DNA of 64,000 nt from an uncultured virus (IMG/VR IMGVR_UViG_3300046009_012017) (taxonomy: Duplodnaviria > Heunggongvirae > Uroviricota > Caudoviricetes): the IMG/VR virus record IMGVR_UViG_3300046009_012017. One strand, written 5' to 3'. Position numbers and translations under genes: made by a program. The notes under the pieces are model-generated. The model was given only the letters and a program-made list of their open reading frames with translations, was not told where the DNA came from and searched no databases. This document shows positions 1,531-36,597 of this stretch, piece by piece; positions within the stretch are counted from its first letter, which is position 1, and each line of letters opens with the position of its first letter.

Positions 1531-1540
1531 AAGGTCTTTA

Positions 1541-2827: not shown

Positions 2828-2839
2828 AAAGATCTTTAT

Positions 2840-2947: not shown

Positions 2948-3006
2948 CAAAAAATATAAATCATTTTTTATTTTATATTCGATTATCTATCTTAGCAAAA
3001 AAGGAT

Positions 3007-10266: not shown

Positions 10267-10722
10267 TTAATGCTTATTAATTTCTTTCTTAATAAGATCA
10301 ATTTCGTTTATTATTTCGCTATTGTCCCTTTTTACTATTATAGTGGAAGTCCTGTTTGGACCTAGGGAATCCACAGTTCTATAAGCTTCTAGATTTGTTT
10401 GTCTTATTATTTGGTTATCTGAGCTTTTAGCCTTCCCCCTTAAATGATCTAGCATAGATATAAATTCTTTCTCCCTTTCTACAATCTGATTGGTGCAGTT
10501 TCTTTGTTCATTTCTTATTAAGTCGTCCTTGTACATTAAATCACTCTCCATCTTTTTTATTTTAGCGTCCATGTTATCTAGTTCATTTTTTAGATCGCTC
10601 TTATCTTGTATTAGCGAGGGTGAAATTGTAATTATAATGATTGATAACAGGATAAGTGATAGTGCTATTATCTTTTGCGGTGTTGAGAACTGAGCTATTA
10701 TTTGAGAGATGTATTTGAACAT
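10267..10722 (-). CDS. Membrane-anchored coiled-coil protein
   Basis: N-terminal TM helix followed by a heptad-rich region. Confidence 0.65.
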   Translation of the reverse strand: MFKYISQIIAQFSTPQKIIALSLILLSIIIITISPSLIQDKSDLKNELDNMDAKIKKMESDLMYKDDLIRNEQRNCTNQIVEREKEFISMLDHLRGKAKSSDNQIIRQTNLEAYRTVDSLGPNRTSTIIVKRDNSEIINEIDLIKKEINKH

Positions 10723-11411: not shown

Positions 11412-12386
11412 ATGAAAAAAGGCCCGATCTCTCAATTTATAGAAAGAAACTATAAACACTTTAATGCTGCAGCTTTAAAAGATGCAGCTGTAGCATATTC
11501 ACATCATGTAGACCACGGAGGTAAAATGCTAATATCATTAGGCGGTGCAATGAGTACTGCAGAGCTTGGTATATCCCTTGCTGAAATGATTAGAGAAGGA
11601 AAAGTTGATATTATTTCGTGTACTGGTGCGAATTTAGAGGAGGATATAATGAATCTAGTAGCTCACTCTCACTATAAAAGAATACCAAATTATAGGGATC
11701 TAACACCACAAGAAGAAAGAGAGCTTTTAGACAAAGGATGGAACAGGGTAACAGATACTTGTATTCCCGAGGAGGAAGCTTTTAGGAGACTACAATCCTA
11801 CATATATGATATATGGAAAGAAGCTGAAGATAGGGGTGAGAGATATTTTCCTCATGAATATATGTATAAATTAATCAATAGCGGAGTACTTGCACAGTAT
11901 TATGAAATTGATCCTAAAGATTCTTGGATGGTCGAAGCCGCTAAAAGAAATCTTCCTATGGTTGTTCCCGGGTGGGAGGATTCAACTATGGGAAATATAT
12001 TTGCTTCGTATGTTATTAAAGGCGAGCTAAAGGCAGACACAGTTAAAAGTGGGATCGAATATATGGTCGAGCTGAGCGAATGGTACAAAAGTAATTGCTC
12101 TGGTATGGGAATAGGATTCTTCCAAATAGGCGGTGGTATCGCAGGGGATTTTCCTATATGCGTGGTTCCTATGATGTATCAGGATCTTGAGTGGGAAGAC
12201 GTTCCATTCTGGGCTTACTTCTGTCAAATATCGGATTCGACTACTTCATATGGATCTTACTCTGGTGCAGTACCTAATGAAAAAATTACATGGGGTAAAC
12301 TAGATACTGACACTCCTAAATTTGTAGTTGAATCCGATGCAACTATAGTTGCTCCTCTTATTTTCTATTGGATATTAAATAAGTGA
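11412..12386 (+). CDS. Deoxyhypusine synthase-like protein (possible homospermidine synthase)
   Basis: HFNAA, GGAMSTAELG, CTGANLEED, PGWEDSTMGN, IGGGIAGDF, GSYSGAVPNEKITWGK, SDATIVAPL. Confidence 0.92.
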   Translation: MKKGPISQFIERNYKHFNAAALKDAAVAYSHHVDHGGKMLISLGGAMSTAELGISLAEMIREGKVDIISCTGANLEEDIMNLVAHSHYKRIPNYRDLTPQEERELLDKGWNRVTDTCIPEEEAFRRLQSYIYDIWKEAEDRGERYFPHEYMYKLINSGVLAQYYEIDPKDSWMVEAAKRNLPMVVPGWEDSTMGNIFASYVIKGELKADTVKSGIEYMVELSEWYKSNCSGMGIGFFQIGGGIAGDFPICVVPMMYQDLEWEDVPFWAYFCQISDSTTSYGSYSGAVPNEKITWGKLDTDTPKFVVESDATIVAPLIFYWILNK

Positions 12387-20180: not shown

Positions 20181-20500
20181 CAAGAAGATTTAAATTCTAT
20201 AAAGAGGAAGACGGAAAATGGTTTGTAGATCTTCCTGAATGGGAAGGAGATAAGGATGATCTCGAAATGGTTATGGGTGCAGATATACTTTTGGAAATAT
20301 TATCCAATAATTCAGACTATTGCTACGTAACATTTAGCGATGAACCATTTGACGGAGCTAAGACACTGACGTACGATCATACGGAATCTACTCCTGGATA
20401 TTATAATAATGATGCGTGGCACGGACCATCTACTATTTGGCTTTGTTATGTAACTGAATTTGTTTTTGGTAAATATCCGGAGAAGATTTATTTCTCGTAG
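20177..20500 (+). CDS. Conserved hypothetical protein
   Basis: WFVDLPEW, LEMVMGAD.LL, WLC.VT.FVFG.YP. Confidence 0.75.
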   Translation: MTRRFKFYKEEDGKWFVDLPEWEGDKDDLEMVMGADILLEILSNNSDYCYVTFSDEPFDGAKTLTYDHTESTPGYYNNDAWHGPSTIWLCYVTEFVFGKYPEKIYFS

Positions 20501-20940
20501 TACTCTATCATCTTTACAGCATTAGATACTAGCCAAGGATCTACACCTGGTATTTTCATTAGAAAATTAAGCTCATACTTATAGCAAAGAGCCTCTTCCT
20601 TATTGGGATCTAACTTAGAATATAGTTGCTTGATATAGAGGTGCATCGATTCATGTACAAGTATAGCTGCGATGTTATAAATATTAGGATTTTTTATATC
20701 ATTAACTGCTATGGTTATCATAGAATCTCCCTCCGTAGTAGAGAATGATCCGTTCCAGTATCCGATATCTGTGCAAGACTCTAAAAGTACATTGTATTTT
20801 TCTAAGTCGTATTTTTTTATAATAGATATTGCACTGTCGACCTTGTTTTTCCATCCATCACCGACGTCTGCTACTCTTATTTGTGACAAGATAGAATTTG
20901 TTATAAATATAAAAATTATAAAGAGAGAGCTTCTTATCAT
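20488..20940 (-). CDS. Secreted zincin-like metallopeptidase
   Basis: Signal peptide; ILVHESMH (HExxH) plus downstream EE. Confidence 0.7.
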   Translation of the reverse strand: MIRSSLFIIFIFITNSILSQIRVADVGDGWKNKVDSAISIIKKYDLEKYNVLLESCTDIGYWNGSFSTTEGDSMITIAVNDIKNPNIYNIAAILVHESMHLYIKQLYSKLDPNKEEALCYKYELNFLMKIPGVDPWLVSNAVKMIEYYEK

Positions 20941-21389
20941 ATCTTTATTACTGCTTCATGTATTGCTTTTTTAAGTGCTGATGATACTGTCATTTTTTCA
21001 AAAGGTAACATTCCCTCTTTCACCTCGATCATAATTGCTCTTATTTCAGTTTCAGATTCCCCAATCCCCTCGTAACATTTACCGTCGTAGTATAATTTAA
21101 TACCAACTTGTGTTACGGATTCTGTTTTTTCTATTCCAACAACTCTTATAGTTGTTTTAGGTAAACCAAAGTAAAAAACTTCAACATCTATATCCTTTCC
21201 ATCTTCGGACAAGCAGAACCTTTCAGAGAGTTCGTCTTCTACTATTTGTCTTATACCAAATCGTATATCTCGATTTCCCATCTCTTTTAATTTTGCTGTA
21301 TTGTAAACCGAATCTACATACACACATTGCTGGGCATTAGCATTTATACAAAATACTATTGAAATTAGAATTAGGATTATATTTTTCAT
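20937..21389 (-). CDS. Secreted protein resembling the CsgG-like neighbour
   Basis: Signal peptide; FGIRQIVEDEL and GIGESET...F...TVSSALKKA parallel LGVTNIVIEYL and GLGEAVT...F...TVGISTKKA of 25393..26133. Confidence 0.55.
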   Translation of the reverse strand: MKNIILILISIVFCINANAQQCVYVDSVYNTAKLKEMGNRDIRFGIRQIVEDELSERFCLSEDGKDIDVEVFYFGLPKTTIRVVGIEKTESVTQVGIKLYYDGKCYEGIGESETEIRAIMIEVKEGMLPFEKMTVSSALKKAIHEAVIKI

Positions 21390-21976
21390 TTGATTAGATA
21401 TTTATTATAGTCTGTAGATATGGGTTTTTCATTTTTGAAGTAATATCTTTCGACCTTATTTCCGTATTTTATAGTTTTAATGTATCCATCAGGTATAGTT
21501 GCTCCAGTTGGGAGTACAACAGATTTACTAGAAAATATACATCTGATCTCGACAATAACTTCTTTATTTGTTTTTGCCAATTCTCTTTCTCTAACTTCTA
21601 ACAATCTCCACGTAGTCCTATTTAGGTTCTCTTGCTGTAGGGAACAATTCAAATATGTAAAGGTATTATATAATTTTTCTTTTGTACAGTTAAAATCTGC
21701 AGCAGGAGCAAGGTGTCCTTTGTCGTATGGATTACTCTCATAGTCTTTGTGATCTGACGTTACTATTGAATCGCAAACATAAAAGTCCATGCCAGTTCTT
21801 GGTGCAGTTCCGTTTGGACATTGTACGGTATATCTGATAAATTTGGGTTGCTGTAATTTTTCCGAGTATACAATTTCAAACATGTCTGTTTTGATGTAAA
21901 TTGAATCCCTTAGTGACTTTTGCGAAAATACAAATAGTGGTGAGATAAAGATTAATGGTAGTAGTAGTTTTTTCAT
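21386..21976 (-). CDS. Secreted DNA/RNA non-specific endonuclease (NucA/EndoG family)
   Basis: Signal peptide; YDKGHLAPAADF, TF.Y.N...Q...LNR..W..LE. Confidence 0.92.
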   Translation of the reverse strand: MKKLLLPLIFISPLFVFSQKSLRDSIYIKTDMFEIVYSEKLQQPKFIRYTVQCPNGTAPRTGMDFYVCDSIVTSDHKDYESNPYDKGHLAPAADFNCTKEKLYNTFTYLNCSLQQENLNRTTWRLLEVRERELAKTNKEVIVEIRCIFSSKSVVLPTGATIPDGYIKTIKYGNKVERYYFKNEKPISTDYNKYLIK

Positions 21977-21977
21977 A

Positions 21978-23654
21978 TTAATAATTTACTGTTGATTTAT
22001 AAGCTGGTGCTATTAGATAATAATTTACTGATCCTCCGCTTACTGGAGAGTTTATAGTTATTGAATTAACACCAGGTATAGTTATTCTTAGATCCGCTGT
22101 ATTGCTATTAAGTGTGCTATACTGCGCTGTAGTATAGTATCTAGCGGGTGGAGTGTTTATCCATCCCCCCATAAAATTATTTCTTCTTAAATTGATGTAG
22201 CTTTCATCTGCCACCGTTATTCTTCCATCGTTATTAACGTCATATCTGTTGTAATGGATGCTTTTCCTTGATGTTATACCTAGGACTATTTTAGAAACTT
22301 CTACCATGTCGGATACGCTTAGCTGAGTAACTGGTGTTGTCTGGTCAAGCTGGATGTACCATTCTATCGATGGATTGGTGGACACGGTAAAGTTCCAATA
22401 TCCGGATGAATTGGTATAAACAGTCTGATGCAAAACCCACGGCGTATATGTGACAATATAATCAAACTCTAAAACATATGGAAGAGATACACCGTTGGGT
22501 AAGTCATTCCATAAACCTCCACCAACAAACTGTGCATAATCTTCACTTCCCGAATTATTAGGTTCCCCGCCGTTCCAAGAAAGATATGGATTTAAACCAA
22601 ATCTATAAGATAGGGACATATAACATCTATCAATCTCGTCCGTTGATAGACATGTATTGTAGACCTGAAAAGCACCTAATCTAAAAGATCCATAGCCTCC
22701 GTGTCCCATGTTTGTAAAATCACTTAATCCAAGAGCAAATACTTGATTTCCCCCTCCGTCTGTGTGAGGAGCTAGTCTAACAAAGCTAACAGATCCAAAA
22801 CTTACACCGTTCTTGTAACCTGTCATAGTTGTTCCGTTATATGTGACAGCAATCATTGTCCATTGATTGAGCGTAATTGGTGTAGATAACTGCGTAATTC
22901 CTAAGCCATTCCAAAATCCAACTCTGAGCGTATTTCCTCCAGTAATTTCCATGACAGATTCATGCCATCCAGATGAAGGGGATTGAACACCTAGCTCACT
23001 AGCTATTACACCGTTTCCTGTTGGATAAACCCAAGCAATAAGTGTAATTACTTTAGATAAGCCGAAGTAATTTGTTAATCCAGGAGTAATTCCGTAAGTA
23101 TTGACCCCGTTGAATGTAAGGTATTTACCCCCTCCGCTCGTATAAACCGGTGAGTTTGTGAGTGACATGTTATTTCCGTTACCAGAATCAGGCAATGTTG
23201 GACCCGCAACATAATTAGCGACATCGTAGTTACTCACTCTTCCGGCAGTTACGTAATTTTCTGTCCATCTCCATCCACCTAAAGGCTCTGTATAAAAAGC
23301 TCCGGTTTTATCCTGATAATATCCAATCCAGCCTGATGGCCAAGTATTATAAAGGAAAGTCCTTTCTGCCAGATTTGATATTGTTGCTAAGTGACCGTTC
23401 ATGCCCTCGCATGCAGCTTTAGCATTCGTCCAGAACATTGAACCTGTTGATCTATAATATGAATGTCCGTTGTAGTTAGTTTGTGACGTAAAGCCATTCA
23501 TAACCGGGGTGGTTCTTTTGTATAATTTGACAGGTACGTTCACTGCTCCTGTACCATCTGCATTGTATATGTAGCCCGAATATGTAAAGTTTTGTGCGTG
23601 TATTTGGAACACGGAAAACAATACTATTGCCCAACTAATAATCTTGTTCCACAT
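21978..23654 (-). CDS. Secreted adhesin: C-type lectin with inserted LamG domain, plus dockerin-like repeat
   Basis: Signal MWNKII...IHA|Q; YNGHSYY..W..A...C....GHLATI, WIG, EPNN..ED..WND; LamG NQWTMIAVTY; DVNNDGRITVAD. Confidence 0.8.
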   Translation of the reverse strand: MWNKIISWAIVLFSVFQIHAQNFTYSGYIYNADGTGAVNVPVKLYKRTTPVMNGFTSQTNYNGHSYYRSTGSMFWTNAKAACEGMNGHLATISNLAERTFLYNTWPSGWIGYYQDKTGAFYTEPLGGWRWTENYVTAGRVSNYDVANYVAGPTLPDSGNGNNMSLTNSPVYTSGGGKYLTFNGVNTYGITPGLTNYFGLSKVITLIAWVYPTGNGVIASELGVQSPSSGWHESVMEITGGNTLRVGFWNGLGITQLSTPITLNQWTMIAVTYNGTTMTGYKNGVSFGSVSFVRLAPHTDGGGNQVFALGLSDFTNMGHGGYGSFRLGAFQVYNTCLSTDEIDRCYMSLSYRFGLNPYLSWNGGEPNNSGSEDYAQFVGGGLWNDLPNGVSLPYVLEFDYIVTYTPWVLHQTVYTNSSGYWNFTVSTNPSIEWYIQLDQTTPVTQLSVSDMVEVSKIVLGITSRKSIHYNRYDVNNDGRITVADESYINLRRNNFMGGWINTPPARYYTTAQYSTLNSNTADLRITIPGVNSITINSPVSGGSVNYYLIAPAYKSTVNY

Positions 23655-25396
23655 GTTATTGTATAATTTAAAGTGTTCACCTTTATAGCCCAAGCTCCCC
23701 CCGCATTTATATTAAATTTAAATCTCTTAGTTATATTTATATTCGTTCCTAAACTTGGCAGAATAACATATGGTGACTTTAAAACCAGATCGTTATAATA
23801 GCTTACGTAAGGTGAATAAACGAAAAGTGACATTAGCTTTACATCTATTCTTTTACCAAATTTAAGATCATACATTCCCCCTGCAATTAAAGCCGATCCT
23901 ATAAAAGGAGTTTTATATACCTGGCCATAAGATACTGTCGCCATATATACAGCTTTTAAATGTGGTACTTTTGGGAACATAAACATCTGTCCTCCTGCTA
24001 TAGTTCCGTATAGAGACCCTCTTCCCTCAAATCCTATTGATAATGTACCAGATAGAAGTCCTACGCTTTTTTTGTTAATCCACGCATGATATCCAGTTAT
24101 ATTTGGACCTCTTTGTGCAGAAACATAATCCATTAATCCACCTCTGGCAGTTGCACCATCCCACCTCATGTTGTGATATCCCCCAGTAAGCTTTAATCCA
24201 GTTCTAACTTCTGAGTTCTGAAAGTTAAATCCAACAAAGTCACTGGATGCTATAACGGTTGGTTTTCCACCATCCCTATTTTGATTTACTGTTTTTGTTG
24301 CTCCCTGAGTAATATTAGTTTGCCCTCCCTGCTCTTCTGTTTGCGACTGTGTCTCTTCCGAATTTGGCGAATTTCCATTTCCATTCGGAGATCCATTTTG
24401 TGAGGATGTATTTCCTGATCCACTATTAGGATCGCTAGTATTTGTACCGCTATTGGGAGAATTACCTACTTCTTGTCCCGGTTCTTGATTATTTCCCGAG
24501 CTGTTGTTATTAATCCCATTAGACCCATTACCACCAGTACTACTATTATTACTGCTGGTAGAATTGTTGACGTTGTTTCCATTGGTGTTAGTGGTTTGAT
24601 TATTTATAGTCGGCAAAGTCGATGAATTTCCGTTTTCATTTGATCCATTTTGAGTTGTAGTGCCTCCTGCTGGTGTTTCACCTTGAGCTCCAACATTTGT
24701 ATTAGCGGATCCAGCTCCTCCAGTGTTTGGAGATGCTTCATTTGTTCCAGAAGAGGTTTGATTTCCTCCATTAGTGTTACTTGTTCCATTTTCTTGGTTA
24801 TTTGATACGGAATTATTAGTACCTATTTCTGAATTGTTCGTATTAGTCTGGTTTGTATTTACGTTTGTGTTACCTGTTGTATTATTTTCCGTATTGTTAT
24901 TTCCAGATGATCCTGGATTGTTATTTTCTTGATTACCTGATGAGGCGGTATTGTTATTCTTTTTATCTGAGTTTTTTTTACCCGTATTGGAAGAGTTAGA
25001 AGCTGCAGTTAAAGTCCCACTTAAAAAGTCAGTAGCCCCATTAGAGATATCCATAAGTGAGGATAATGAATTAATTATCCCTACGGTATTTAGGGCAACA
25101 TCCTGAGCTATGTTTATTTGACCGCCAAGTCCAATTATTTCAGAACACGGAGATCCGTCATATTGTGTGAAGATGTCATTAGCCCATATTTCAAAATTAC
25201 CATTGTAAAAATCTTGCGATGTAAAGTTTTGTACAAATCCATAATAACCTACTGTAACAGATCCGTTAATAGGCACAATTATATTTTTAATATTTCCTGT
25301 ACATGGATCTGTGTATGAATAGTTATAGGTCTGAGCTTTTACACTAAAAAACCCAAGAACAAAAAAAAATACTAGTATGTAATTTTTTATTTTCAC
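23624..25396 (-). CDS. Secreted protein with long Asn/Gly/Ser/Thr-rich linker and probable C-terminal outer-membrane beta-barrel
   Basis: Signal peptide; about 230-aa low-complexity tract; amphipathic beta-strands in the last ~200 aa. Confidence 0.65.
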   Translation of the reverse strand: MKIKNYILVFFFVLGFFSVKAQTYNYSYTDPCTGNIKNIIVPINGSVTVGYYGFVQNFTSQDFYNGNFEIWANDIFTQYDGSPCSEIIGLGGQINIAQDVALNTVGIINSLSSLMDISNGATDFLSGTLTAASNSSNTGKKNSDKKNNNTASSGNQENNNPGSSGNNNTENNTTGNTNVNTNQTNTNNSEIGTNNSVSNNQENGTSNTNGGNQTSSGTNEASPNTGGAGSANTNVGAQGETPAGGTTTQNGSNENGNSSTLPTINNQTTNTNGNNVNNSTSSNNSSTGGNGSNGINNNSSGNNQEPGQEVGNSPNSGTNTSDPNSGSGNTSSQNGSPNGNGNSPNSEETQSQTEEQGGQTNITQGATKTVNQNRDGGKPTVIASSDFVGFNFQNSEVRTGLKLTGGYHNMRWDGATARGGLMDYVSAQRGPNITGYHAWINKKSVGLLSGTLSIGFEGRGSLYGTIAGGQMFMFPKVPHLKAVYMATVSYGQVYKTPFIGSALIAGGMYDLKFGKRIDVKLMSLFVYSPYVSYYNDLVLKSPYVILPSLGTNINITKRFKFNINAGGAWAIKVNTLNYTITCGTRLLVGQ

Positions 25397-26133
25397 CTTG
25401 GGAATATTCCTTTAGATATTAACCTAGTAACGACCCTAGATGAGGCAGTTTCCAATGCTTTTTTAGTGGATATACCTACTGTTGACTGATTGAATTTTAC
25501 TTCATCGCTAATATCACCCAATATTGAGGAAGTTTTAATGGTTACAGCTTCACCTAAACCTGATCCAACGATAACTTGGCTTGTTTCAGCATCTACAAAT
25601 TTGATTTGAAGTCCTAATCTAGTTGTCTGGTTGACCGTTTGCTGTCCGTTCACTTTTACTATCTCGTCTTCTGACACGCTAAAGTCGTAAACCTCTATAT
25701 AAACAAAGTATTTAGCTAGGACAACATTTCCCTTTACTTCTATCTTATTAGATGATACTCCCTTGTCGGAAGCTTTATCCTGGGCTATCATTCTTTGCTT
25801 GATCTCCTCTTTTTCCTCCGTAAAGATAAATCTATTAGTGTATTCTAGATATTCAATTACTATGTTTGTAACCCCTAGACCTACCCTTTTGTCTTTTAAC
25901 TCTGGGTATAATTCATATAGCTCCTCATTAATACCTATTTTCAGTAATTGTATTGGGACCTGTATTTCTCCGTCATAGTCCGCAACAGAATCTATTGATT
26001 GCTTTTTTTCGAAATCTGCAACGTACTGTTCCGTTTTAACAGACCCAATTCCCCCTCCTTGAGGGGGTTGGGCGTTCAGAGTTTTACAACTGAATAAACT
26101 TAATATAGATATTATGATTATTAGATTTTTCAT
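25393..26133 (-). CDS. CsgG-like lipoprotein
   Basis: Lipobox-like LFSC; L..TNRF...E, V.I.VYDF, LQIKFVDAETSQVI. Confidence 0.75.
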   Translation of the reverse strand: MKNLIIIISILSLFSCKTLNAQPPQGGGIGSVKTEQYVADFEKKQSIDSVADYDGEIQVPIQLLKIGINEELYELYPELKDKRVGLGVTNIVIEYLEYTNRFIFTEEKEEIKQRMIAQDKASDKGVSSNKIEVKGNVVLAKYFVYIEVYDFSVSEDEIVKVNGQQTVNQTTRLGLQIKFVDAETSQVIVGSGLGEAVTIKTSSILGDISDEVKFNQSTVGISTKKALETASSRVVTRLISKGIFPR

Positions 26134-26135
26134 TC

Positions 26136-26753
26136 TTATTCTTCTATTTGGCTTCTTAGTAATCCGCAAGTTTGACATTCTTCGAAACCGTCACCATCTG
26201 CGTCTCCCCAAATGTGCTCGCAGTTTCTGTGTTCGAAATATTCGTCAATGTCTCCATCTCCGTCAGTATCATATCCATCATTTACTCCGTCACCGTCTTC
26301 GTCAACTTCAGCTTTTTGAAATTCTTCGACTATAGCTTCTTCTACTGGAGCAGGATATTCTACTACAGGCTCTTCGTAAACTTCCTCTGTTACTTTAGTT
26401 TTTTTTTCAGGGGAAGGCTCAGATACGTTAGAAAGTGCTACGCCATCTTCCTCGTCAACTTTCTGGATAAGCATCTTATCTCTATCCTCAGAATTGAACC
26501 AGTAATCCACCACTTTATTTAAGTTACCTACAAAGGCACCTAAAAGGATAAGTAGCATTTCTTTCCAATCCTCGTTAACAGTTGTTCCTATAAAAACTCC
26601 TGCGTTTATTCCAAGAATGATAAAGAAAAATAATCCTAGCACGATCGCTGTAATTCTCCATCTATTAGCTTGCATTTGTTGAAGCATATAATAGAATCTG
26701 TTTTTGTCTTCTACCTTAACGTACTCGCTTTTTGTGTTGAAAATGTTTCTCAT
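26136..26753 (-). CDS. Two-TM membrane protein with acidic Ca-binding-like DxDGDG repeats
   Basis: Two TM helices; DEDGDG, DTDGDGD, DADGDG; terminal CxH...CxxC. Confidence 0.7.
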   Translation of the reverse strand: MRNIFNTKSEYVKVEDKNRFYYMLQQMQANRWRITAIVLGLFFFIILGINAGVFIGTTVNEDWKEMLLILLGAFVGNLNKVVDYWFNSEDRDKMLIQKVDEEDGVALSNVSEPSPEKKTKVTEEVYEEPVVEYPAPVEEAIVEEFQKAEVDEDGDGVNDGYDTDGDGDIDEYFEHRNCEHIWGDADGDGFEECQTCGLLRSQIEE

Positions 26754-26775
26754 TTGTTTGTTTTATTTTATTTAG

Positions 26776-27117
26776 TTACCAAGATTCCTCTTCCTCTTTT
26801 TTAGGTTTAGCAGGCTCTTGTGTTGCTGCAGGTTTTTCAATAACTCTTTCTCTAATTACTGTACCACCTCCGTTATTTTCAGTCTTTTGCTTGTTTTCTT
26901 GGTTTTGTTGTACGTTTAAGTTAATAACCGGTTGCTGTGCTGGAGCAGCTTGTTCAGTTTTAGTTTCTTCACTGTCCTCACTACCGCCACCGAAAATTAT
27001 AGTACTTACCCATACTCCGCCACCTGCAATTACTGTAGTTAACGTTCCGATGATTGTCTTCTTTAATCCTGACCAAGTTCCGTCATTGGTCTCTGGTGCA
27101 TTTGTTTCTTCGCTCAT
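26776..27117 (-). CDS. Single-TM protein
   Basis: One TM helix followed by a polar low-complexity region. Confidence 0.7.
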   Translation of the reverse strand: MSEETNAPETNDGTWSGLKKTIIGTLTTVIAGGGVWVSTIIFGGGSEDSEETKTEQAAPAQQPVINLNVQQNQENKQKTENNGGGTVIRERVIEKPAATQEPAKPKKEEEESW

Positions 27118-27121
27118 TTTT

Positions 27122-29053
27122 TTATTTTATTTTGGCTATCTTTTCTACTATAGTGTTTCCGTTCTCAGTGGTTAGAGTTACGAAATATAATCCCGATTCT
27201 AATTTACCAAGATCTGTATAGTATGAAAATTGTCCGTTTGGTACTTGACCAGTTAATATTGTAGCTAGTTTTCTTCCCTGTAAATCTGATATGTATAATG
27301 TAGCATTAGAAGTTTCTGATAGGCTAAATGTTATAGTAACTTCCTCTTCGAATGGATTAGGGTAGACTAGCATAGAGTTTGCATCTATTATTTGTCCGTT
27401 AGATATCTTTAATACCTGAAGAATTCCGTTTGTTGGCGTTAATGTTAAGTCCTTGTAATTCGATGCGTTACCTGCAAATTTTCTAGTGGTATATAAAGGA
27501 CTCTCATCCCATTGATTTTGTGGTTGTAGTGCTACGAATTGTAGGGTTATAACTTCGTCGCCATCTTTTAGCGTCTTCTGATTGTTAGTTATGTCATATC
27601 CACCCCAATCTACTTCTCCGTCGTTTGGATTGACATAAGTAAGCCATTCCATTACTGAAGATGTTGAGTAAATTCCCTTGAATGAAAGTATATCTGAGTT
27701 ATATTTTAATCCAAATTGAAGGGAGTTTAATTCCTTTCCGTTGGTTAATACCTTTACTGGTACATTTACTAAGTTCCCCTCTTGTACTGAAATGTGAGGA
27801 ACGTTAACCTCTACTGATTCTGTAGGAAAGTCGTATTCTACCTTAGTGTCTATTACGTTGTATATTTGATTTTCAAGACCTGGTGCAGGACCAACTATTA
27901 CTTCAATTGGAGTTACACGAGCCATATGATAACCAGTACCGTTAGCATCACCTGGTACGACTACGTAGTAAACAACTGAATCTGGTTGTCCAGGTAATAT
28001 CTCAAATGTAAAGTTAGTTGCTCCGGCTATTGATGATGTATAGTTAGTTGCTGATCCGTTAATAGTGTTATATTCGGATTGTGTAAAGAATTTAACATCC
28101 TTCGTATTGTTAGGCCATACTGCGAATCTTCCTGAAATTCTACCGAATACTCCGTATGCGTCAGTAATAGTTACATTATCTGATTCGTTAACATCTGCTG
28201 CATAATAATCAAATCCTGTCATCGTACCGTTACCTAGTACCCATTGATTAATTAATTGTGCATCTGCAGTCGAAATAACGTTACCTACTGCCATTGAATC
28301 TCCTTGTATTGCTAATCTCACGTCCCAATAAGTAGTATCTAATGGTACAGATATAGCGAAGTCACCGTTTATATCAGTAACATAAGTTGAATGTTGTGAC
28401 CATACGTTACCACCTAATGGTCTTCTTTGTAGAGCTAAAGTTAAGTTCTTAGCAGGTGTTCCAGTTACGTTGGTAAATGTTCCGTGGTAATCGAAATTCT
28501 GAAATATAAAGTTACCTCCGTAGTTGTGTAGATTTAGTGTTGTGTCTGCTCCTTCCTGAGTAGCTGCATATTGTTGGAAGGGGTTAGCTGCCGGAACAAC
28601 AGACCAAGCTAATGGTGTGATAGTTGCTAAGTTATTAAACACTGATGAAGCAGCATGAGTGAAATTAATTTCGAATCTCTCTCCATCGGGTAGCGTATAC
28701 GTTGAACTAGATCCCGTATAAACTAAGGTCATGGTGATGTAACCATTTGCTGCGTTAGTTATGTATTGAAAATCTAAATTCGTAGGAGATCCTAGAAGAG
28801 ATACGGTAGCATTGGTGAATGCTATTTTATCGTAGAATACTCTAAATTGTACACCTGTATATTTTGAAAGTGTAGTGTTCTTAGAAGTAATTCTTGCGGT
28901 CGTAAAACCTTGTGTGGTTGTACCAACAGTGTAGTTGGTGTCTATTATTGCCCATATTCCTGTTGAAGGTGCTGGTGGACCAGATTGAGCAAATAAATTA
29001 AAGTTTGTAGCAAAGATTGCTAATAGGAAGCCTATTAATCTTAGTGGTTTCAT
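27122..29053 (-). CDS. T9SS type A sorting-domain protein with cohesin-like and dockerin-like modules
   Basis: Signal peptide; GVQFRVFYD and VNVPVKV...SLQFGLKYNSDIL (cohesin-like); AADVNESDNVTITDA (dockerin-like); VYPNPF...LESGLYFV...KIAKIK (CTD). Confidence 0.85.
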   Translation of the reverse strand: MKPLRLIGFLLAIFATNFNLFAQSGPPAPSTGIWAIIDTNYTVGTTTQGFTTARITSKNTTLSKYTGVQFRVFYDKIAFTNATVSLLGSPTNLDFQYITNAANGYITMTLVYTGSSSTYTLPDGERFEINFTHAASSVFNNLATITPLAWSVVPAANPFQQYAATQEGADTTLNLHNYGGNFIFQNFDYHGTFTNVTGTPAKNLTLALQRRPLGGNVWSQHSTYVTDINGDFAISVPLDTTYWDVRLAIQGDSMAVGNVISTADAQLINQWVLGNGTMTGFDYYAADVNESDNVTITDAYGVFGRISGRFAVWPNNTKDVKFFTQSEYNTINGSATNYTSSIAGATNFTFEILPGQPDSVVYYVVVPGDANGTGYHMARVTPIEVIVGPAPGLENQIYNVIDTKVEYDFPTESVEVNVPHISVQEGNLVNVPVKVLTNGKELNSLQFGLKYNSDILSFKGIYSTSSVMEWLTYVNPNDGEVDWGGYDITNNQKTLKDGDEVITLQFVALQPQNQWDESPLYTTRKFAGNASNYKDLTLTPTNGILQVLKISNGQIIDANSMLVYPNPFEEEVTITFSLSETSNATLYISDLQGRKLATILTGQVPNGQFSYYTDLGKLESGLYFVTLTTENGNTIVEKIAKIK

Positions 29054-29154
29054 TTTTTTCGTCGTTTATCTATATATTTTTTAAACTTGAAAACATGGTA
29101 TAATTTTTTAAAAAATTGTTGAATTTTTTTAATCCCTTAAAATATGATATAAAA

Positions 29155-29749: not shown

Positions 29750-29792
29750 TTTTTATCCCAAACTGGGAATATATAATAAAAAATATATTCCT

Positions 29793-30626
29793 ATGTTACT
29801 TAAAAATGGATCTAAGGGAGAAGATGTAAAAAAACTCCAAGAAAAATTGGGCCTTACCGCAGATGGTTCCTTCGGTCCAGGAACAGAAGCAAAAGTTAAA
29901 GAATGGCAAGCAGCTAACGGTCTAAAAGCCGACGGTATTGTTGGCGACGGTACTTGGGCTAAGATGTTTGGTTCAGCACCAGTAGCAGCAGCTCCTGCAG
30001 CAGCTCCAGTTTCTATACCACCTTCAGCTTTCAAGCTAGAAAATTTAAAGGGTCATATTCCTGATGCAGTTCTTGCACAGATCCCAGATACAGCAGCTAA
30101 ATTTAATATCACTAACACATTAAGACTTGCACACTTCTTAGCACAGTGTGGACACGAGTCTGGAGGTTTTAAAGCCGTTTCAGAAAATCTTAATTATTCT
30201 GCCGACGGCCTTAAAAAGATATTCCCAAAATATTTCCCTGGAAATCTTAATGAATCTTATGCAAGACAGCCAGAAAAGATAGCTTCTAGGGTTTATGGAA
30301 ACAGAATGGGCAATGGTGACGAAGCTTCTAAAGAAGGTTTTAAATTTAGAGGTAGAGGCTATATCCAATTAACAGGAAAATCTAACTATGCTTCTTTTGA
30401 TAAATTCGTAGATGACGATATCTTAGGAAATCCGGATTTAGTTGCTACTAAATACCCTCTAATGTCTGCAGCATTCTTCTTCAATAACAATAGCTTATGG
30501 TCAATTTGCGACAGAGGATCAGACGATGCTACAGTTACCGCAGTAACAAAAAGAGTAAATGGAGGTACTATCGGATTACCTGATAGAATCAAACACTTTA
30601 AAGAGTATTACTCATTGCTTAAATAA
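29793..30626 (+). CDS. Endolysin: peptidoglycan-binding domain plus GH19 lysozyme/chitinase-like domain
   Basis: LKNGSKGEDVKKLQ..L...DG.FG..T; RLAHFLAQCGHES, ENLNYS, FRGRGYIQLTG, TKRVNGG. Confidence 0.93.
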   Translation: MLLKNGSKGEDVKKLQEKLGLTADGSFGPGTEAKVKEWQAANGLKADGIVGDGTWAKMFGSAPVAAAPAAAPVSIPPSAFKLENLKGHIPDAVLAQIPDTAAKFNITNTLRLAHFLAQCGHESGGFKAVSENLNYSADGLKKIFPKYFPGNLNESYARQPEKIASRVYGNRMGNGDEASKEGFKFRGRGYIQLTGKSNYASFDKFVDDDILGNPDLVATKYPLMSAAFFFNNNSLWSICDRGSDDATVTAVTKRVNGGTIGLPDRIKHFKEYYSLLK

Positions 30627-30829: not shown

Positions 30830-31432
30830 ATGTACACAAGAGAACAGGTTGAGGCTGCCGTTAAAGCCAAGGGATATGTCTATTTCGAAGACGCTAATAA
30901 CAAAGGATTCGATGTTAATATTATTGGGATCAGAAATTCATCTACCGGACAAAAAGTTACTAATGCTTTTGATGATTTATTAACCATATCCTACAAAGAC
31001 GAGACTGGAGCATGGAAATATCATGAATGGCCTGCAACTACAGATCCTGGAAAAAAAGGTGTTCTTGAATATCATAATACTGCTGGTGTAGCTAGATTAG
31101 TTGAGGGACAATACAGAGGATCACATGGAATTGGTTTACACCAGGGAAAATACGAAGCATTAAAGCAAGCTAAACCAGTAAAGGTTTATAGAGACGCTGA
31201 TAAGGATCTAGAATATGACGAGAATAAAATCCAGGAGGGCGTTTTTGGTATCAATATACATAAAGCTGGAGCTGATTCAACATATGTTGAAAACTGGTCT
31301 GAAGGATGTCAGGTATTTAAAAAATCTGCAGATTTTGAATCGTTCATGACGATTGTAAGAAAAGCTAGAGGAATACACGGTAATTCTTTTACCTATACTT
31401 TAATAGAATCTTCAGATATTAAAGCAGCCTAG
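30830..31432 (+). CDS. YkuD/L,D-transpeptidase-like protein
   Basis: GINIH...WSEGCQV resembles the H...S.GC catalytic motif. Confidence 0.55.
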   Translation: MYTREQVEAAVKAKGYVYFEDANNKGFDVNIIGIRNSSTGQKVTNAFDDLLTISYKDETGAWKYHEWPATTDPGKKGVLEYHNTAGVARLVEGQYRGSHGIGLHQGKYEALKQAKPVKVYRDADKDLEYDENKIQEGVFGINIHKAGADSTYVENWSEGCQVFKKSADFESFMTIVRKARGIHGNSFTYTLIESSDIKAA

Positions 31433-31705: not shown

Positions 31706-32275
31706 TTATTCAAATCTTTTTTCTGAAGCTATATGATCTAGATATTCATTAAGATTCATCTCTAACCCGTCTTTTTTAATTACAAAGTTTAAGATCCCGG
31801 AATCTATATTTTCTGTAGATGTTCTATCTTCTATAGATTCTATATCTAATCTGAATTTTATATTATCCATAATAGATTTTCTAGTTTCCTCTGTGTTTAG
31901 ATCCCAGGAGTACTTAGATAAAATTTCAGATATTTCTTCTCTAACGATATCAGATTCAGTGCTAGAAGGTAATAGATTGTTTAATTGTTTTATGCTCATT
32001 AAATGAGAAGAAAGCGATGGAACTAGATGGATTTTCATCATTACTACTGGTATCATTGCTGACTCATCTATCCAAGATTCAAATTCAAAGTCTAGAATTT
32101 TATCTTTATGTGACTCAATGTAATCCTCAATAACTTGGATACACCCTTCGTAGTCTTGATTAAGATCCTCGATACTAAATACAAAGAATTTTTTTAACGT
32201 CTGTGGTTCTCTTTGTAATTTTTCTATTTTTTTAAATATTAGATTTCTAATATCCCTCTTTATACTTTCTGTCAT
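31706..32275 (-). CDS. Hypothetical protein
   Basis: 189-aa ORF. Confidence 0.65.
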   Translation of the reverse strand: MTESIKRDIRNLIFKKIEKLQREPQTLKKFFVFSIEDLNQDYEGCIQVIEDYIESHKDKILDFEFESWIDESAMIPVVMMKIHLVPSLSSHLMSIKQLNNLLPSSTESDIVREEISEILSKYSWDLNTEETRKSIMDNIKFRLDIESIEDRTSTENIDSGILNFVIKKDGLEMNLNEYLDHIASEKRFE

Positions 32276-33860
32276 AGAATTCGCTTATTTGTTTAGATCT
32301 ATTGTATTGATGTACTATGCATGGTTTATTTTTACCAGTCTCTATATAATCTTCTTTTATTTCTATAAAATCAGGATCTTTTTGGCAAACTAGTCCTATA
32401 GTTGCTATAAAATCACCACACTTTTTCACTTCCGAATTTTTAAAAAGAATTGTGTTGTTTCTAGCAATATAATTATGTACACCTTGATCGATACCTTCGG
32501 ATTCAATTCCTGGATTAATCTCAATCTTTTCTGACATAATCATAACCATGGATTTAAGATAATTCATTATATTTTTTATGGATCCGATAGTTGTACCTGC
32601 ACATATAATAGGCATATCCCCTATTTTATCCAATCCGCTATTTCCGAAAGTTATAGAAACCCATCTTCTGTTAAAAGAGTTATCTTTTATTTTCTCACCT
32701 TCGTACTCTTCAGAAAATACTATGAATTCTTTTTTAAAGTCGTTCTCAAAAGGATTAGATTGAAAAACTACATCCGTAACATCAGTTATTAAAATGTTCT
32801 TATATTGATCCTTATTTTCAGAAATGAAATCTAGATATTTATAGAATCTGTGTACGTTTAGATTAAAGTTAGTTCTATTTATAGTGTTAAAAGAGCTAGA
32901 AAGTATTGATACGTTGTATTTTTTTAGCAGTAGGACTAATCCTCTATTGGGAGATACATTTGTTATTAGATATACATCATCTGCCTTGTTAAATTCTCTG
33001 AATGATTTAACAAAATTCATTACATCATCTGGTCCTAATCCTATTGCAGTTCCTAAGACTAGATTTTTTTTACTCCTTGTTGGTATTTCGGTATTACCCT
33101 CATGTAGGATTCTCCAATTTTTTGGTAGATCCGGATTTTTTTCTGGATCTTTCCTGTCAAATTTTCTCCATTCCCCGAAAAGATCCTTTCCGTTAGATAT
33201 TGAATCCTCTATATGATTCAGATCCTTGAATTTATCTTTGTTGTATTCCTGGTGTGCAAAATTCTCTAATTTGTTTGCTATTCGTTCGGATCCGCCAAAG
33301 TAAGTTAGGTGCCATCCCCCATTTTCCCACCATTGACAATCAAAAGTTAATCTGCACTGGTCTGGAGTTGTTCCTTTTAAAGTTCCCCAATTAACAACCT
33401 TAGGATGATACCATTTATTTGTAATCTCCTTATTATAGAAATTACCAAAATATGTTATCATCTCCATCTTATTAATACAATTAAGATCGTAAGAATTTTT
33501 TATGTATTCTACTCTTTCTGAATTTAAGATCTCATCTACATCAGTGATAAAAACTATATCCCTATCTGAAAGTCCCAACGAATAAAGAGTGGGCATAAAG
33601 GAATTTCTTTGGAATTTCTCCCTACCCCAAGGATCTGATATATTACTCGGGTAGTACGCTTTAACGTGTATGATTTTATCGATCCATTTTTCAAATCTCC
33701 ATTTGTTTTCTTCGAAAATGAATCTTTTATTCTCTCCCTTATGAGTTTTTTCTGCCTCTACTAATATAAAATGGTCTACAACATCGTATAGTTCGGTAAG
33801 CCTTAGTTCAAGTATTTCTAATTCGTTATAGAATGTAAAACAATCTATTACCTTTTTCAT
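32247..33860 (-). CDS. Two-domain glycosyltransferase: GT17-like N-terminus plus a second GT-A domain
   Basis: DCFTFYNELEILELR, RE.FQRN, DVDEI, GWHL.YFG, K..NFAHQE; second domain RF..Y, TDVTDVVFQ.NPF, DQGVHN, HQYNR. Confidence 0.85.
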   Translation of the reverse strand: MKKVIDCFTFYNELEILELRLTELYDVVDHFILVEAEKTHKGENKRFIFEENKWRFEKWIDKIIHVKAYYPSNISDPWGREKFQRNSFMPTLYSLGLSDRDIVFITDVDEILNSERVEYIKNSYDLNCINKMEMITYFGNFYNKEITNKWYHPKVVNWGTLKGTTPDQCRLTFDCQWWENGGWHLTYFGGSERIANKLENFAHQEYNKDKFKDLNHIEDSISNGKDLFGEWRKFDRKDPEKNPDLPKNWRILHEGNTEIPTRSKKNLVLGTAIGLGPDDVMNFVKSFREFNKADDVYLITNVSPNRGLVLLLKKYNVSILSSSFNTINRTNFNLNVHRFYKYLDFISENKDQYKNILITDVTDVVFQSNPFENDFKKEFIVFSEEYEGEKIKDNSFNRRWVSITFGNSGLDKIGDMPIICAGTTIGSIKNIMNYLKSMVMIMSEKIEINPGIESEGIDQGVHNYIARNNTILFKNSEVKKCGDFIATIGLVCQKDPDFIEIKEDYIETGKNKPCIVHQYNRSKQISEFYDRKYKEGY

Positions 33861-34514: not shown

Positions 34515-35399
34515 ATGCGTGATTTTAAAATAGTCAACCGAATCACTAACATAACAGATAATTTAAATCGATATTTTACAGAAATTTCCAGATATCCTAT
34601 ACTTACACCTGACGAAGAAGCAAGACTAGCAATAAAATCAAGGGAGGGGGATGCAAAATCTAAAGAGATAATCTTAAAATCTAATTTAAGATTTGTAGTT
34701 TCTGTAGCAAAAGCTTATGAATCCCCAAAGGCAAATTTAGAAGACCTAATATCAGAGGGAAACAAGGGACTAGTAGAAGCCATAGAGACTTTCGATCCTA
34801 GTACTGGTTTTAAATTTATAAGCTATGCCGTATGGCACATAAGAAAAAACATATTAATGTATCTTAATAATCATTCCAGGTCAATAAGAATACCAACTAA
34901 CATTAATCATGAAATGAGGAGATACCAGCTGTTAGAGGATGAATTTACCTCCTATAATGGTAGAGAGCCTTCGCTCGAGGAGATGATAGAAATAATAAAA
35001 GATCCAGAAAATGGAATTAAGATCTCTAACAGCACAATAGAAACTATAAAGAATAATCCAGTTTCAATTCCACTAGAAAGCCACGGTAGTAATAATCCGG
35101 ATGAAGATATATTTAGTCCTATAAATTTTATAGAGTCATCAGAGAATAGCGACAGTATAGTTATAGATGAGGACTTTAAAAATATTGTTTTACAGGTTCT
35201 TTCTGAATTAAAGCCTATCGAAAAGGAAGTTATTATGCTGAGATATGGATTGGGAGAAGAAAAGGAACCTATGGAATTTAGAGCTATAGGAGAAAAAATG
35301 GGAAGAACACCAGAGTGGGCTCGAATAATTGCAAAAAAAGCAGAGAAGAGATTTAAGGTGATAGCCAGAAGAAAAAAAATAAGCGGAATTTTTGGCTAG
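34515..35399 (+). CDS. Second, divergent sigma-70 family factor
   Basis: SNLRFVVSVAK, DLISEGNKGL, FDPSTGFKFISYAVWHIRK; region 4.2 reads TPEWARII instead of TRERVRQI. Confidence 0.92.
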   Translation: MRDFKIVNRITNITDNLNRYFTEISRYPILTPDEEARLAIKSREGDAKSKEIILKSNLRFVVSVAKAYESPKANLEDLISEGNKGLVEAIETFDPSTGFKFISYAVWHIRKNILMYLNNHSRSIRIPTNINHEMRRYQLLEDEFTSYNGREPSLEEMIEIIKDPENGIKISNSTIETIKNNPVSIPLESHGSNNPDEDIFSPINFIESSENSDSIVIDEDFKNIVLQVLSELKPIEKEVIMLRYGLGEEKEPMEFRAIGEKMGRTPEWARIIAKKAEKRFKVIARRKKISGIFG

Positions 35400-35772: not shown

Positions 35773-36597
35773 ATGAAGTATCTTAAAACACTAAATGAAT
35801 TTAGATCGATGAACGAGCAGTTATTCGGTGACTATGCGGGATCTCTAATGAAACTCCTTGGAGGAGAAGGATTACAGAAGTCTCCTGTTGGGGGTTCTAT
35901 CACAATGAAAGGTGAAGTCTCGGGAGACAAAGCAAAAAATGCTCAGGCAATTATAAGTGCAATGCAAAAACATGAAATAACTAATCCATTCACACAAAAA
36001 GCTATACTCGGTGTTATAGGAAAAGAAACAGGATTTGTGCCTAAGAATGAGACATCATATTCTAATACATCAGCTTCGAGAATAAGAGGTATATTTGGAA
36101 GTCGTGTTGGTGAAATGTCAGATGCTCAAATAGATCAGTTGAAAAAAGACGATCAGGCATTTTATAATAAAGTTTACGGTGGAAGATATGGAAATGCGCC
36201 AGGTGAGGGTTATAAATACAGAGGAAGAGGATTCAACGGTATAACTTTCAAGGGAATATATCAAAATATGCAGAAACTACTAGATAAGCTAGGAAAACTA
36301 GATAGAAAAGTAGATATAGTGGCGAATCCTGATGTTTTAAATGATATAGACGTAGCAGCAGAGACAGCAGTTCTTTATTTCTTAGACAGAGCTTCTAATC
36401 CTAAAATGTATCAAAAATATGGGGTTAAGGATATAAATGCTTTTAAGGATCAAGAGACTGCTTTAAAAGCGATGGTCAACGCAAATGCTGGATGGGGAAA
36501 AGATATCAACAATGACTATCTTGGAAGTTTAGAAAAAGCAAGAGTACAAGCGGACAAGTTTAATATCTCCGATTTAGGGCAAAACAACGTTGCTTAA
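35773..36597 (+). CDS. Leader-bearing GH19/lysozyme-like peptidoglycan hydrolase
   Basis: MKYLKTLNEF..MNEQLF leader; ILG...KETG, GYKYRGRGFNGIT, NPD. Confidence 0.75.
   Translation: MKYLKTLNEFRSMNEQLFGDYAGSLMKLLGGEGLQKSPVGGSITMKGEVSGDKAKNAQAIISAMQKHEITNPFTQKAILGVIGKETGFVPKNETSYSNTSASRIRGIFGSRVGEMSDAQIDQLKKDDQAFYNKVYGGRYGNAPGEGYKYRGRGFNGITFKGIYQNMQKLLDKLGKLDRKVDIVANPDVLNDIDVAAETAVLYFLDRASNPKMYQKYGVKDINAFKDQETALKAMVNANAGWGKDINNDYLGSLEKARVQADKFNISDLGQNNVA

What the first reader, a model, noticed from the sequence alone, without database searches (positions are those of the whole stretch)
20488..29053. Nine-gene cell-envelope operon with cohesin/dockerin modules, T9SS cargo, lectin adhesin, CsgG-like proteins, barrel, nuclease and protease
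Seen: nine tightly packed minus-strand genes (short gaps or overlaps), all with signal peptides, a lipobox or TM helices. In order: cohesin-dockerin-cohesin-CTD protein, TM protein, TM protein with DxDGDG repeats, CsgG-like lipoprotein, linker plus beta-barrel protein, lectin-dockerin protein, NucA-type nuclease, second CsgG-like protein, HExxH peptidase. Known: type A CTDs route cargo through the Bacteroidota T9SS, cohesin-dockerin pairs assemble extracellular complexes, and CsgG forms outer-membrane secretion pores. Inference: a phage-borne module that assembles a surface complex on the infected cell, for adhesion, receptor masking or superinfection exclusion, or extracellular DNA breakdown. 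I do not know of a described phage system like this.
Basis: partly seen in the sequence, partly recalled or inferred. Interest (0 to 1): 0.85.

Follow-up and report, generated by a model that had tools for sequence, protein, structure and literature searches.

The report
Late phage envelope-display module
A large lake phage of Flavobacterium-type bacteria carries nine linked genes, shared among unrelated phages and apparently switched on with the lysis genes, that look like a kit for mounting swappable sugar-binding proteins in the infected cell's outer envelope; what this does for the phage has never been tested.

Summary
Observation largely confirmed. Nine exported or membrane proteins are encoded at 20488-29053 of a large T4-like phage, under purifying selection. 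A five-gene core recurs in 30 of 30 non-redundant phage loci with full flanks: cohesin/dockerin protein with T9SS CTD, small inner-membrane protein, two CsgG-fold proteins, stalked 12-strand outer-membrane barrel. It moves between unrelated phages and was not found in two samples of 300 and 400 host-group genomes. Added here: the module carries a late-promoter-like motif shared with endolysin and some structural genes; marine versions encode their own PorV/PorQ-family protein beside the CTD protein; the lectin slot swaps domains and lacks a CTD. Corrections: the second CsgG hairpin is short, so a curli-type pore is doubtful; dockerins score below cut-off. Best reading: a late envelope-display apparatus that makes the infected cell adhesive (0.45); lysis control and receptor masking remain open. 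The cultured Flavobacterium phage immuto has it, unstudied. This scan found the module before on other DNA.

The parts
29071..29077 (-). Promoter-like ATATATA motif 24 nt before g1; candidate late promoter
   Evidence: same motif before sheath, tape-measure, head-protease and endolysin genes of a related phage
27122..29053 (-). g1, 643 aa: signal peptide, cohesin-like domain (about 26-188), transthyretin-like linker, degenerate dockerin (about 250-311), cohesin (about 410-545), T9SS type A CTD (563-641). Core gene
26776..27117 (-). g2, 113 aa: weakly hydrophobic Gly/Thr-rich membrane helix, then an acidic tail with two conserved beta-type motifs and a C-terminal Trp. Core slot (a TM plus coiled-coil protein fills it in marine phages)
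26136..26753 (-). g3, 205 aa: inner-membrane protein with two predicted helices; the DxDGDG/Cys-His tail is optional among homologues. Accessory (17 of 30 loci); no family match
25393..26178 (-). g4: CsgG/PelC-fold exported protein, probable start at 26133, lipobox usually present. Core, most conserved gene
23624..25396 (-). g5, 590 aa: signal peptide, N-terminal domain with an invariant Cys pair, about 240-aa Asn/Ser/Gly/Thr linker, 12-strand outer-membrane beta-barrel (372-590; DNA 23624-24283). Core
21978..23693 (-). g6: signal peptide, C-type lectin and LamG domains, C-terminal dockerin-like region, no CTD; central domain differs among phages (C-lectin, LamG, GEVED, PA14, Ig_7)
21386..21976 (-). 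g7: exported NucA/EndoG-type non-specific nuclease, catalytic motif intact. Accessory (5 of 30 loci)
20937..21389 (-). g8: short CsgG-fold paralogue of g4 with hydrophobic hairpin tips, no lipobox. Core
20488..20940 (-). g9: exported zinc metallopeptidase-like protein, HExxH..EE. Accessory (20 of 30 loci)
29769..29775 (+). Same ATATATA motif 24 nt before the endolysin
29793..30626 (+). GH19 endolysin with peptidoglycan-binding domain; commonest neighbour of the module
30830..31432 (+). Second endolysin-like gene (phrog_3000, phrog_33083), also a frequent neighbour

Best explanation
A horizontally exchanged module of large phages of Bacteroidota and related (FCB) hosts, expressed late with the lysis genes, that builds a display apparatus in the infected cell's envelope. 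Shown by sequence or model: all products are exported or membrane-bound; g1 bears a T9SS signal; g5 is an outer-membrane barrel with a tethered domain; g4 and g8 have the CsgG/PelC ring-protein fold; g6 is a cassette-like lectin without CTD. Inferred: g1 leaves through the host T9SS and is held at the surface (phage PorV-like protein in marine forms); g6 docks on g1 through dockerin-cohesin contacts; g4 and g8 form a periplasm-facing ring, PelC-like rather than a full pore, coupled to the g5 barrel and to inner-membrane g2, and anchor or export the CTD-less parts; nuclease and peptidase clear matrix or cell material around lysis. Most likely purpose: the doomed cell sticks to neighbours or particles so that the burst is released beside new hosts. 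I put about 0.75 on 'late envelope apparatus' and 0.45 on this adhesive purpose.
For: Five-gene core in 30 of 30 non-redundant loci with full flanks (g1 in 29 by profile plus L085 by BLAST) across four sequence groups including marine phages. dN/dS 0.04-0.24 in the 12 of 18 comparisons where synonymous sites were not saturated. Exchange between unrelated phages: G868 and G870 share g4 at 93-95% while their capsid proteins align at 30% over 109 aa. CTD in 145 of 146 long g1 homologues and 0 of 139 g6. PorV_fam above cut-off in 3 of 3 marine genes tested, directly behind g1. g6 central domain swapped among five adhesin-type families. In immuto g1 is split into a cohesin-dockerin half and a cohesin-CTD half, as expected if the halves join non-covalently. 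Late timing: TATTTAT precedes the module in immuto and 8 of 14 hand-picked structural genes, 0 of 6 replication/metabolic and 0 of 11 small early-region genes; it precedes g1 in 18 of 19 and GH19 in 14 of 16 group B loci; in L024 the order is motif-GH19-g1..g9-second endolysin on one strand. A published lake phage with the same gene order shows transcripts for the front genes (PMC9723584 supplement).
Against: No experiment shows secretion, assembly or adhesion. Dockerins are below cut-off and their first calcium loop is degenerate. g6 is absent from the marine loci and from L084/L085, so lectin display is not the universal core; L084/L085 g1 lacks the CTD. In the window's lineage the motif marks only 3 of 10 structural genes tested against 0 of 11 replication genes, and only 12 motif hits over 36 group A g1 upstream regions (4 ATATATA, 8 TATTTAT). 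In the published table the barrel, lectin and last gene have zero reads, and identity with this module rests on gene order and annotation, not sequence. The Melnitz authors saw no clumping in a phage with csgGF (PMC9004378), though that is a different cluster.
Confidence: 0.45

Rival explanations
1. The core (inner-membrane g2, CsgG-fold g4/g8, barrel g5) is a trans-envelope device for lysis: it breaks the outer membrane in place of spanins or times lysis, with g1/g6 as outside sensors of hosts or other phages.
For: Lysis gene within 2.5 kb in 24 of 30 loci at 95% clustering and 11 of 15 at 90%, on either side and strand; shared promoter-like motif with the endolysin; g2 precedes g4 like an inner/outer spanin pair; a lysis role was proposed for phage CsgGF (PMC9004378).
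Against: The cultured immuto module and three marine loci have no recognised lysis gene within 2.5 kb (immuto lysozyme is gp228). g3 and g2 match no holin or spanin family. Recognised holins (Phage_holin_4_1, GTA_holin_3TM) lie beside, not in, the module. A separate TM plus beta-hairpin protein that could be a spanin sits elsewhere in relative G867 (architecture only, recalled resemblance).
Confidence: 0.25
2. The module masks or remodels host surface receptors late in infection, to block superinfection or to stop progeny adsorbing to debris of the lysed cell; the lectin binds the host's own glycan and the nuclease destroys incoming DNA.
For: Variable lectin slot as expected of a host-glycan binder; exported nuclease and peptidase with intact motifs; outer-membrane location of g5.
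Against: Late-type motif fits poorly with classical exclusion; nuclease in only 5 of 30 loci; a five-gene trans-envelope core is more than masking needs (inference).
Confidence: 0.2
3. A loose cluster of host-derived envelope genes or of virion proteins with no joint function in the infected cell.
For: Each domain is common in FCB bacteria; a KSB1 contig has a CsgG-like, barrel, CsgG-like triad (g4 33% identical); g2 has a weak match to a 'virion structural protein' family (E 0.007).
Against: Core kept together through rearrangement in four groups; purifying selection; signal peptides on seven genes; g4 profile found in 0 of 300 other genomes of the host genus and 0 of 400 of the phylum sampled.
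Confidence: 0.1

Closest known systems
Flavobacterium phage vB_FspM_immuto (MW353175), genes 12-19
   Same: Same module: nuclease, lectin, split g1, g2, g4 (71% identical), g5, g8.
   Different: Order changed, g1 split in two, no g3 or g9 found, no lysis gene adjacent. Annotated only as lectin, cohesin and hypothetical proteins; I could not find its isolation paper in the library.
csgG/csgF clusters of pelagimyophages and methylophage Melnitz (PMC7029224, PMC9004378)
   Same: Phage-encoded CsgG-fold protein absent from the host; 'sibling capture' and lysis control were both proposed there.
   Different: No sequence match: g4 hit only immuto among 50,697 phage records. No CsgF homology. In the passages read, those clusters have no T9SS cargo, cohesin, dockerin, lectin or barrel.
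Curli secretion channel CsgG (type VIII secretion)
   Same: Fold and distant sequence homology.
   Different: Second hairpin 17-19 residues against 30; two divergent paralogues; no match to csgA or csgF for the genes compared.
PelBC export complex of Pseudomonas aeruginosa (PMC12141448, PMC13631591)
   Same: A CsgG-related periplasmic ring that lacks membrane-spanning segments and sits on a separate outer-membrane barrel: the best architectural analogue for g4/g8 plus g5.
   Different: g5 is a 12-strand barrel with a low-complexity linker; no polysaccharide synthase in the module; no contact between ring and barrel has been shown here.
T9SS type A cargo with PorV shuttle (PMC11611037)
   Same: Signal peptide plus TIGR04183 CTD; PorV/PorQ-family gene in marine versions.
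   Different: Encoded by a lytic phage; no phage use of the T9SS was found in the searches made.
Cellulosome cohesin-dockerin scaffolds
   Same: Cohesin and dockerin-like domains, with an exchangeable dockerin-bearing subunit.
   Different: Only two cohesins, degenerate dockerins, lectin instead of glycoside hydrolase cargo, Gram-negative envelope.

Membership tests
T9SS type A cargo (g1) | C-terminal TIGR04183/PF18962 domain above cut-off | tested here: met
   43.8 vs 23 bits and 49.9 vs 27 bits; 43 of 43 aligned members
T9SS type A cargo (g1) | N-terminal Sec signal peptide | tested here: met
   hydrophobic N-terminus and invariant Gln23; no dedicated predictor was available
T9SS type A cargo (g1) | T9SS-dependent secretion and CTD cleavage | not testable with these tools
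   needs wild-type versus gldN/sprA/porV mutant hosts
Cellulosomal cohesin-dockerin system | Cohesin domain | tested here: inconclusive
   PF00963 in 36 of 43 homologues, not in the window copy; first domain only by feature match 0.92
Cellulosomal cohesin-dockerin system | Dockerin with two calcium-binding loop-helix repeats | tested here: not met
   below cut-off; second loop present, first degenerate in g1; loop pattern in 76 of 109 distinct g6
Cellulosomal cohesin-dockerin system | Cohesin-dockerin binding | not tested
Curli CsgG channel | CsgG alpha/beta core fold | tested here: met
   profile hits PDB CsgG E 2.6e-4; top Foldseek hit 4uv2 with a low-confidence model, pLDDT 51; distant homologues pass PF03783
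Curli CsgG channel | Two membrane-spanning hairpins per subunit | tested here: not met
   hairpin 1 22 vs 26 residues, hairpin 2 17-19 vs 30; length measure only
Curli CsgG channel | Lipoprotein signal | tested here: inconclusive
   Cys in 142 of 162 g4 homologues, absent in some; g8 has no lipobox
Curli operon | csgA/csgB/csgE/csgF partners | tested here: not met
   g5 N-domain and g2 against E. coli CsgF, g2 against CsgA: not significant; CsgB and CsgE were not compared; no curli Pfam hit in the nine genes
PelBC-type ring on barrel | Oligomeric ring bound to a co-encoded outer-membrane barrel | not testable with these tools
   co-encoding shown; the contact needs structure or co-purification
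Autotransporter (type Va) (g5) | C-terminal 12-strand beta-barrel | tested here: met
   Z 20.7, rmsd 2.5, 204 aligned to NalP; tied with KdgM and EstA
Autotransporter (type Va) (g5) | Passenger threaded through the barrel to the surface | not tested
   full-length fold job failed; side of the membrane unknown; no Autotransporter Pfam hit in 40 members
Holin (g3) | Match to a holin family or holin slot in the lysis cassette | tested here: inconclusive
   no family match; exclusive with another 2-TM gene in 74 loci (33/30/0 both/11 neither) but co-occurring in 12 of 30 once more groups were added
NucA/EndoG nuclease (g7) | PF01223 and D-R/K-G-H motif | tested here: met
   66.8 vs 23 bits; 24 of 24
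Zincin metallopeptidase (g9) | HExxH with downstream Glu ligand | tested here: met
   89 of 89; no family above cut-off

The most novel reading that the evidence does not exclude
Large phages of Bacteroidota build their own trans-envelope display or secretion machine (inner-membrane g2, twin CsgG-fold ring, stalked barrel whose N-terminal strand docks in the ring as CsgF does in CsgG) and hijack the host T9SS to raise a cohesin scaffold carrying exchangeable lectins, turning the infected cell into an adhesive delivery body that lyses on its next hosts.
Probability: 0.35. Interest if true: 0.92.

Novelty: categorically new. Interest (0 to 1): 0.75.

Why it matters
If it works as read, a lytic phage would be using the type IX secretion system and a cellulosome-like scaffold to change the surface behaviour of the infected cell, a kind of host takeover not found in the searches made. 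The module is common: about 2,000 g1 relatives among 8,000 candidates scored and 126 viral-contig matches in each of two scans. It would bear on how phages spread among dilute or particle-attached Flavobacteria. It also makes the open question of phage CsgG proteins (sibling capture versus lysis control) testable, because a cultured phage-host pair (immuto, Flavobacterium sp. LMO8) carries the module.

Tried and rejected
Complex prediction of g4 x2, g8 x2 and the g5 N-domain: no verdict, score 0.00, partner fold uncertain; not evidence either way. RNA runs: none listed. g4 model was low confidence (pLDDT 51), so its fold matches are only supporting; the viral-structure search gave nothing clear. 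Full-length g5 fold failed. g3 as displaced holin: suggested, undone by co-occurrence in group C. g5 N-terminus as CsgF: same register of aromatic residues and Pro10 from the mature end, but hhalign not significant; kept as a lead. g2 as curlin or CsgF: not significant. Lipoprotein after CTD-less g1 in L084/L085 as split-off CTD: probability 17%, unresolved. Sigma-70 promoter and terminator scan at chance level (40 vs 35.8; 7 vs 5.2). Cellular origin: of 5 genome-collection hits, 4 read as phage contigs in Bacteroidota bins by gene content (L082 is only 2.6 kb) and 1 is a KSB1 contig; two further KSB1 hits have a barrel-like neighbour but no g5, g8 or g1 match. The KSB1 tally of generic CsgG-family hits (131 of 167) includes unpublished genomes G159 and G163; no other claim rests on them. 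P0022 found no viral locus. Literature: searches returned 0 papers; searches returned none describing this module by listing; PMC7162821 has no mention of the terms searched.


Full report
Observation. The nine minus-strand ORFs are at the stated coordinates and abut or overlap. I call them g1 (27122-29053) to g9 (20488-20940). The window is phage DNA: tail-fibre-like gene, Dda-like helicase, two endolysins, 33-39% GC across the module like its flanks. Close relatives lie on 250-290 kb contigs with Gp23-type capsid genes. No genome is held for the window.

Domains. g1 ends in a T9SS type A CTD above both cut-offs. Among 43 aligned homologues 43 match the CTD, 36 Cohesin and 27 Dockerin_1 at E up to 0.05; the window's own copy has no cohesin hit and a sub-threshold dockerin. 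The N-terminal domain is cohesin-like only by language-model features (0.92, 181-184 shared). g6 has C-type lectin and LamG domains and a sub-threshold dockerin. g7 is a PF01223 nuclease with the motif intact in 24 of 24; g9 has HExxH..EE in 89 of 89. g4 had no family hit, but its profile reaches proteins that pass the CsgG cut-off, a widened profile hits solved CsgG (E 2.6e-4), and a poor model (pLDDT 51) ranks CsgG first. g8 is a shortened paralogue (97.7%). Their second hairpin averages 17.5 and 18.5 residues against 30 in E. coli CsgG, the first 22 against 26, so a CsgG-type pore is doubtful; PelC is a relative that forms a periplasmic ring on a separate barrel (PMC13631591 passages; PMC12141448 abstract). 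g5 residues 372-590 model as a 12-strand barrel (pLDDT 81), tied between NalP, KdgM and EstA (Z 20.4-20.7). g2 and g3 match no family.

Distribution. A scan with g4 gave 126 viral matches, 80 kept; g4 and g5 are in 80, g1 and g2 in 75, g8 and g9 in 66, most losses at contig ends. Distant g4 relatives gave a third freshwater group (80 kept of 126) and a marine group (8 loci). After clustering g4 at 95% (45 clusters; L086 and L094 left out), the 30 clusters with 2.5 kb on both flanks all have g4, g5, g8 and a g2-slot gene; g1 in 29 by profile (L085 by BLAST), g6 25, g9 20, g3 17, g7 5. The nine genes show dN/dS 0.04-0.24 against two relatives in 12 of 18 comparisons; the other 6 have saturated synonymous sites. 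The module moves: G868 and G870 share g4 at 93-95% and g1 at 70% while their capsid proteins align at 30% over 109 aa. The only named phage with it among 50,697 records is Flavobacterium phage immuto, genes 12-19. In bacterial genomes the scan found four phage-like contigs in Bacteroidota bins and one KSB1 contig with a CsgG-like, barrel, CsgG-like triad but no g1 or g2; the g4 profile was not found in 300 other genomes of the host genus or 400 of the phylum.

T9SS link and lectin slot. The CTD is kept in 145 of 146 long g1 homologues and is in 0 of 139 g6. In the marine group a PorV/PorQ-family gene follows g1 directly (above the NF033709 cut-off in 3 of 3 tested; labelled in 6 of 8 loci, the other two being cut short). 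PorV is the shuttle for type A CTD proteins (PMC11611037 passages). The g6 slot keeps its ends and swaps the middle among C-type lectin, LamG, GEVED, PA14 and Ig_7. Against universality: marine loci, L084 and L085 lack g6, and L084/L085 g1 lacks the CTD.

Timing and lysis. GH19 is the commonest non-module neighbour: present in 39 of 44 full-flank loci of the first scan, each within 1.3 kb; a lysis gene lies within 2.5 kb in 24 of 30 clusters, 11 of 15 at 90%, the exceptions including immuto and three marine loci. In the window ATATATA lies 11-30 nt before 16 of 97 ORFs, including g1 and GH19 (both at -24), and accounts for 17 of its 25 copies. In relative G867 it precedes sheath, tape-measure and head-protease genes and the GH19 that heads the run GH19-g1..g9-second endolysin; 3 of 10 structural and 0 of 11 replication genes tested have it. 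Group B uses TATTTAT (18 of 19 g1, 14 of 16 GH19); in immuto that motif precedes the lectin gene and 8 of 14 structural genes, 0 of 6 replication or metabolic and 0 of 11 small early-region genes, all hand-picked from 243 features. Many group A and C g1 genes lack either motif, some being mid-operon. That these motifs are late promoters is inference. In the supplement of PMC9723584 one curated lake phage has genes 56-65 in the same order by annotation; 56, 57, 59, 60 and 61 have transcripts in several samples, 58 and 64 few, 62, 63 and 65 none. The main text does not mention cohesin, lectin or secretion. I could not check those sequences.

Mechanism. The data support a late-made apparatus in the infected cell's envelope (about 0.75). 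For its purpose I favour adhesion of the infected cell to neighbours or particles (0.45): it explains a T9SS-exported scaffold, a swappable lectin and late timing together, and resembles the untested 'sibling capture' idea for pelagimyophage curli genes (PMC7029224 passages). Lysis execution or timing (0.25) explains the gene linkage and the lectin-free variants, and was proposed for Melnitz CsgGF (PMC9004378 section 9 part 1). Receptor masking (0.2) and a non-functional or virion cluster (0.1) follow. No binding, secretion or phenotype is shown; the one complex prediction gave no verdict.

Known relatives and novelty. Every part has a known fold; the combination matches no described system in the searches made (the library lacks most subscription journals, and I did not see the immuto isolation paper). 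It fails membership of the curli system and of canonical cellulosomes on tested features, while working by analogy like T9SS cargo plus a PelBC-like ring and barrel. Earlier agents of this scan reported the same module on other DNA and gave me the immuto, Melnitz and PelC leads, which I checked. The late-promoter motif, the marine PorV variant, the capsid-versus-module discordance and the transcript rows were obtained here; a word search of earlier findings for the PorV and promoter points returned nothing.

Noticed in passing
window, 16 ORF starts (e.g. 5253, 7776, 8775, 12410, 35773, 59625): ATATATA lies 11-30 nt upstream, and many of these ORFs begin with a similar M-K-H-x-K-x-F-E-x-F leader; probably a late regulon with a shared N-terminal motif.
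   Followed up: partly
L087-L093 (marine phage contigs): Module variant with a 937-992 aa g1, a PorV/PorQ-family gene, a TM plus coiled-coil gene in the g2 slot and no lectin; GTA_holin_3TM upstream in L088 and L089.
   Followed up: partly
window 25333-25304, minus strand (g5 mature N-terminus): First ten residues have aromatic residues and a Pro in the same register as the mature N-terminus of E. coli CsgF; not significant by hhalign.
   Followed up: partly
L086 (KSB1 contig) 98-3591: Cellular cluster: barrel-like gene, small lipoprotein, g4 homologue, N-domain-linker-barrel, second CsgG-like gene; possible cellular source of the core.
   Followed up: partly
L006, L015, L052, L060, L083: A second, stalk-less barrel paralogue (262-273 aa) is inserted in some modules; L083 also has a DUF481 barrel upstream.
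   Followed up: partly
window 26136-26400 (g3 tail): DxDGDG repeats plus a Cys/His motif form an optional tail present in 6 of 17 aligned g3 sequences.
   Followed up: partly
window 10267-10722 (-): TM helix plus coiled coil, resembling an inner-membrane spanin by recalled architecture; no PHROG match.
   Followed up: partly
L230:12762-13595 (G867), L085:2223-2828, L091:10484-11206: TM plus C-terminal amphipathic beta-hairpin proteins, candidate spanin-like; no BLAST similarity to each other.
   Followed up: partly
window 9895-10266 and 11412-12386: Look like S-adenosylmethionine decarboxylase and deoxyhypusine/homospermidine synthase (recalled from sequence, not scanned): polyamine genes.
   Followed up: no
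window 4303-5166 and 34515-35399: Two sigma-70-like factors (recalled from sequence, not scanned); one may read the ATATATA motif.
   Followed up: no
window 61871-63496, 43130-44152, 1871-2416: TROVE/Ro-like protein, RNA ligase-like protein and NADAR-like protein by recalled resemblance; not scanned.
   Followed up: no
window 32247-33860 and 35773-36597: Glycosyltransferase family 17 protein and a second GH19-like lysozyme (recalled from sequence).
   Followed up: no
L039 and L041: Module interrupted by unrelated 290 and 336 aa ORFs around the nuclease gene; not examined.
   Followed up: no
L046:4933-6651: An extra LamG-repeat protein lies just upstream of g1.
   Followed up: no
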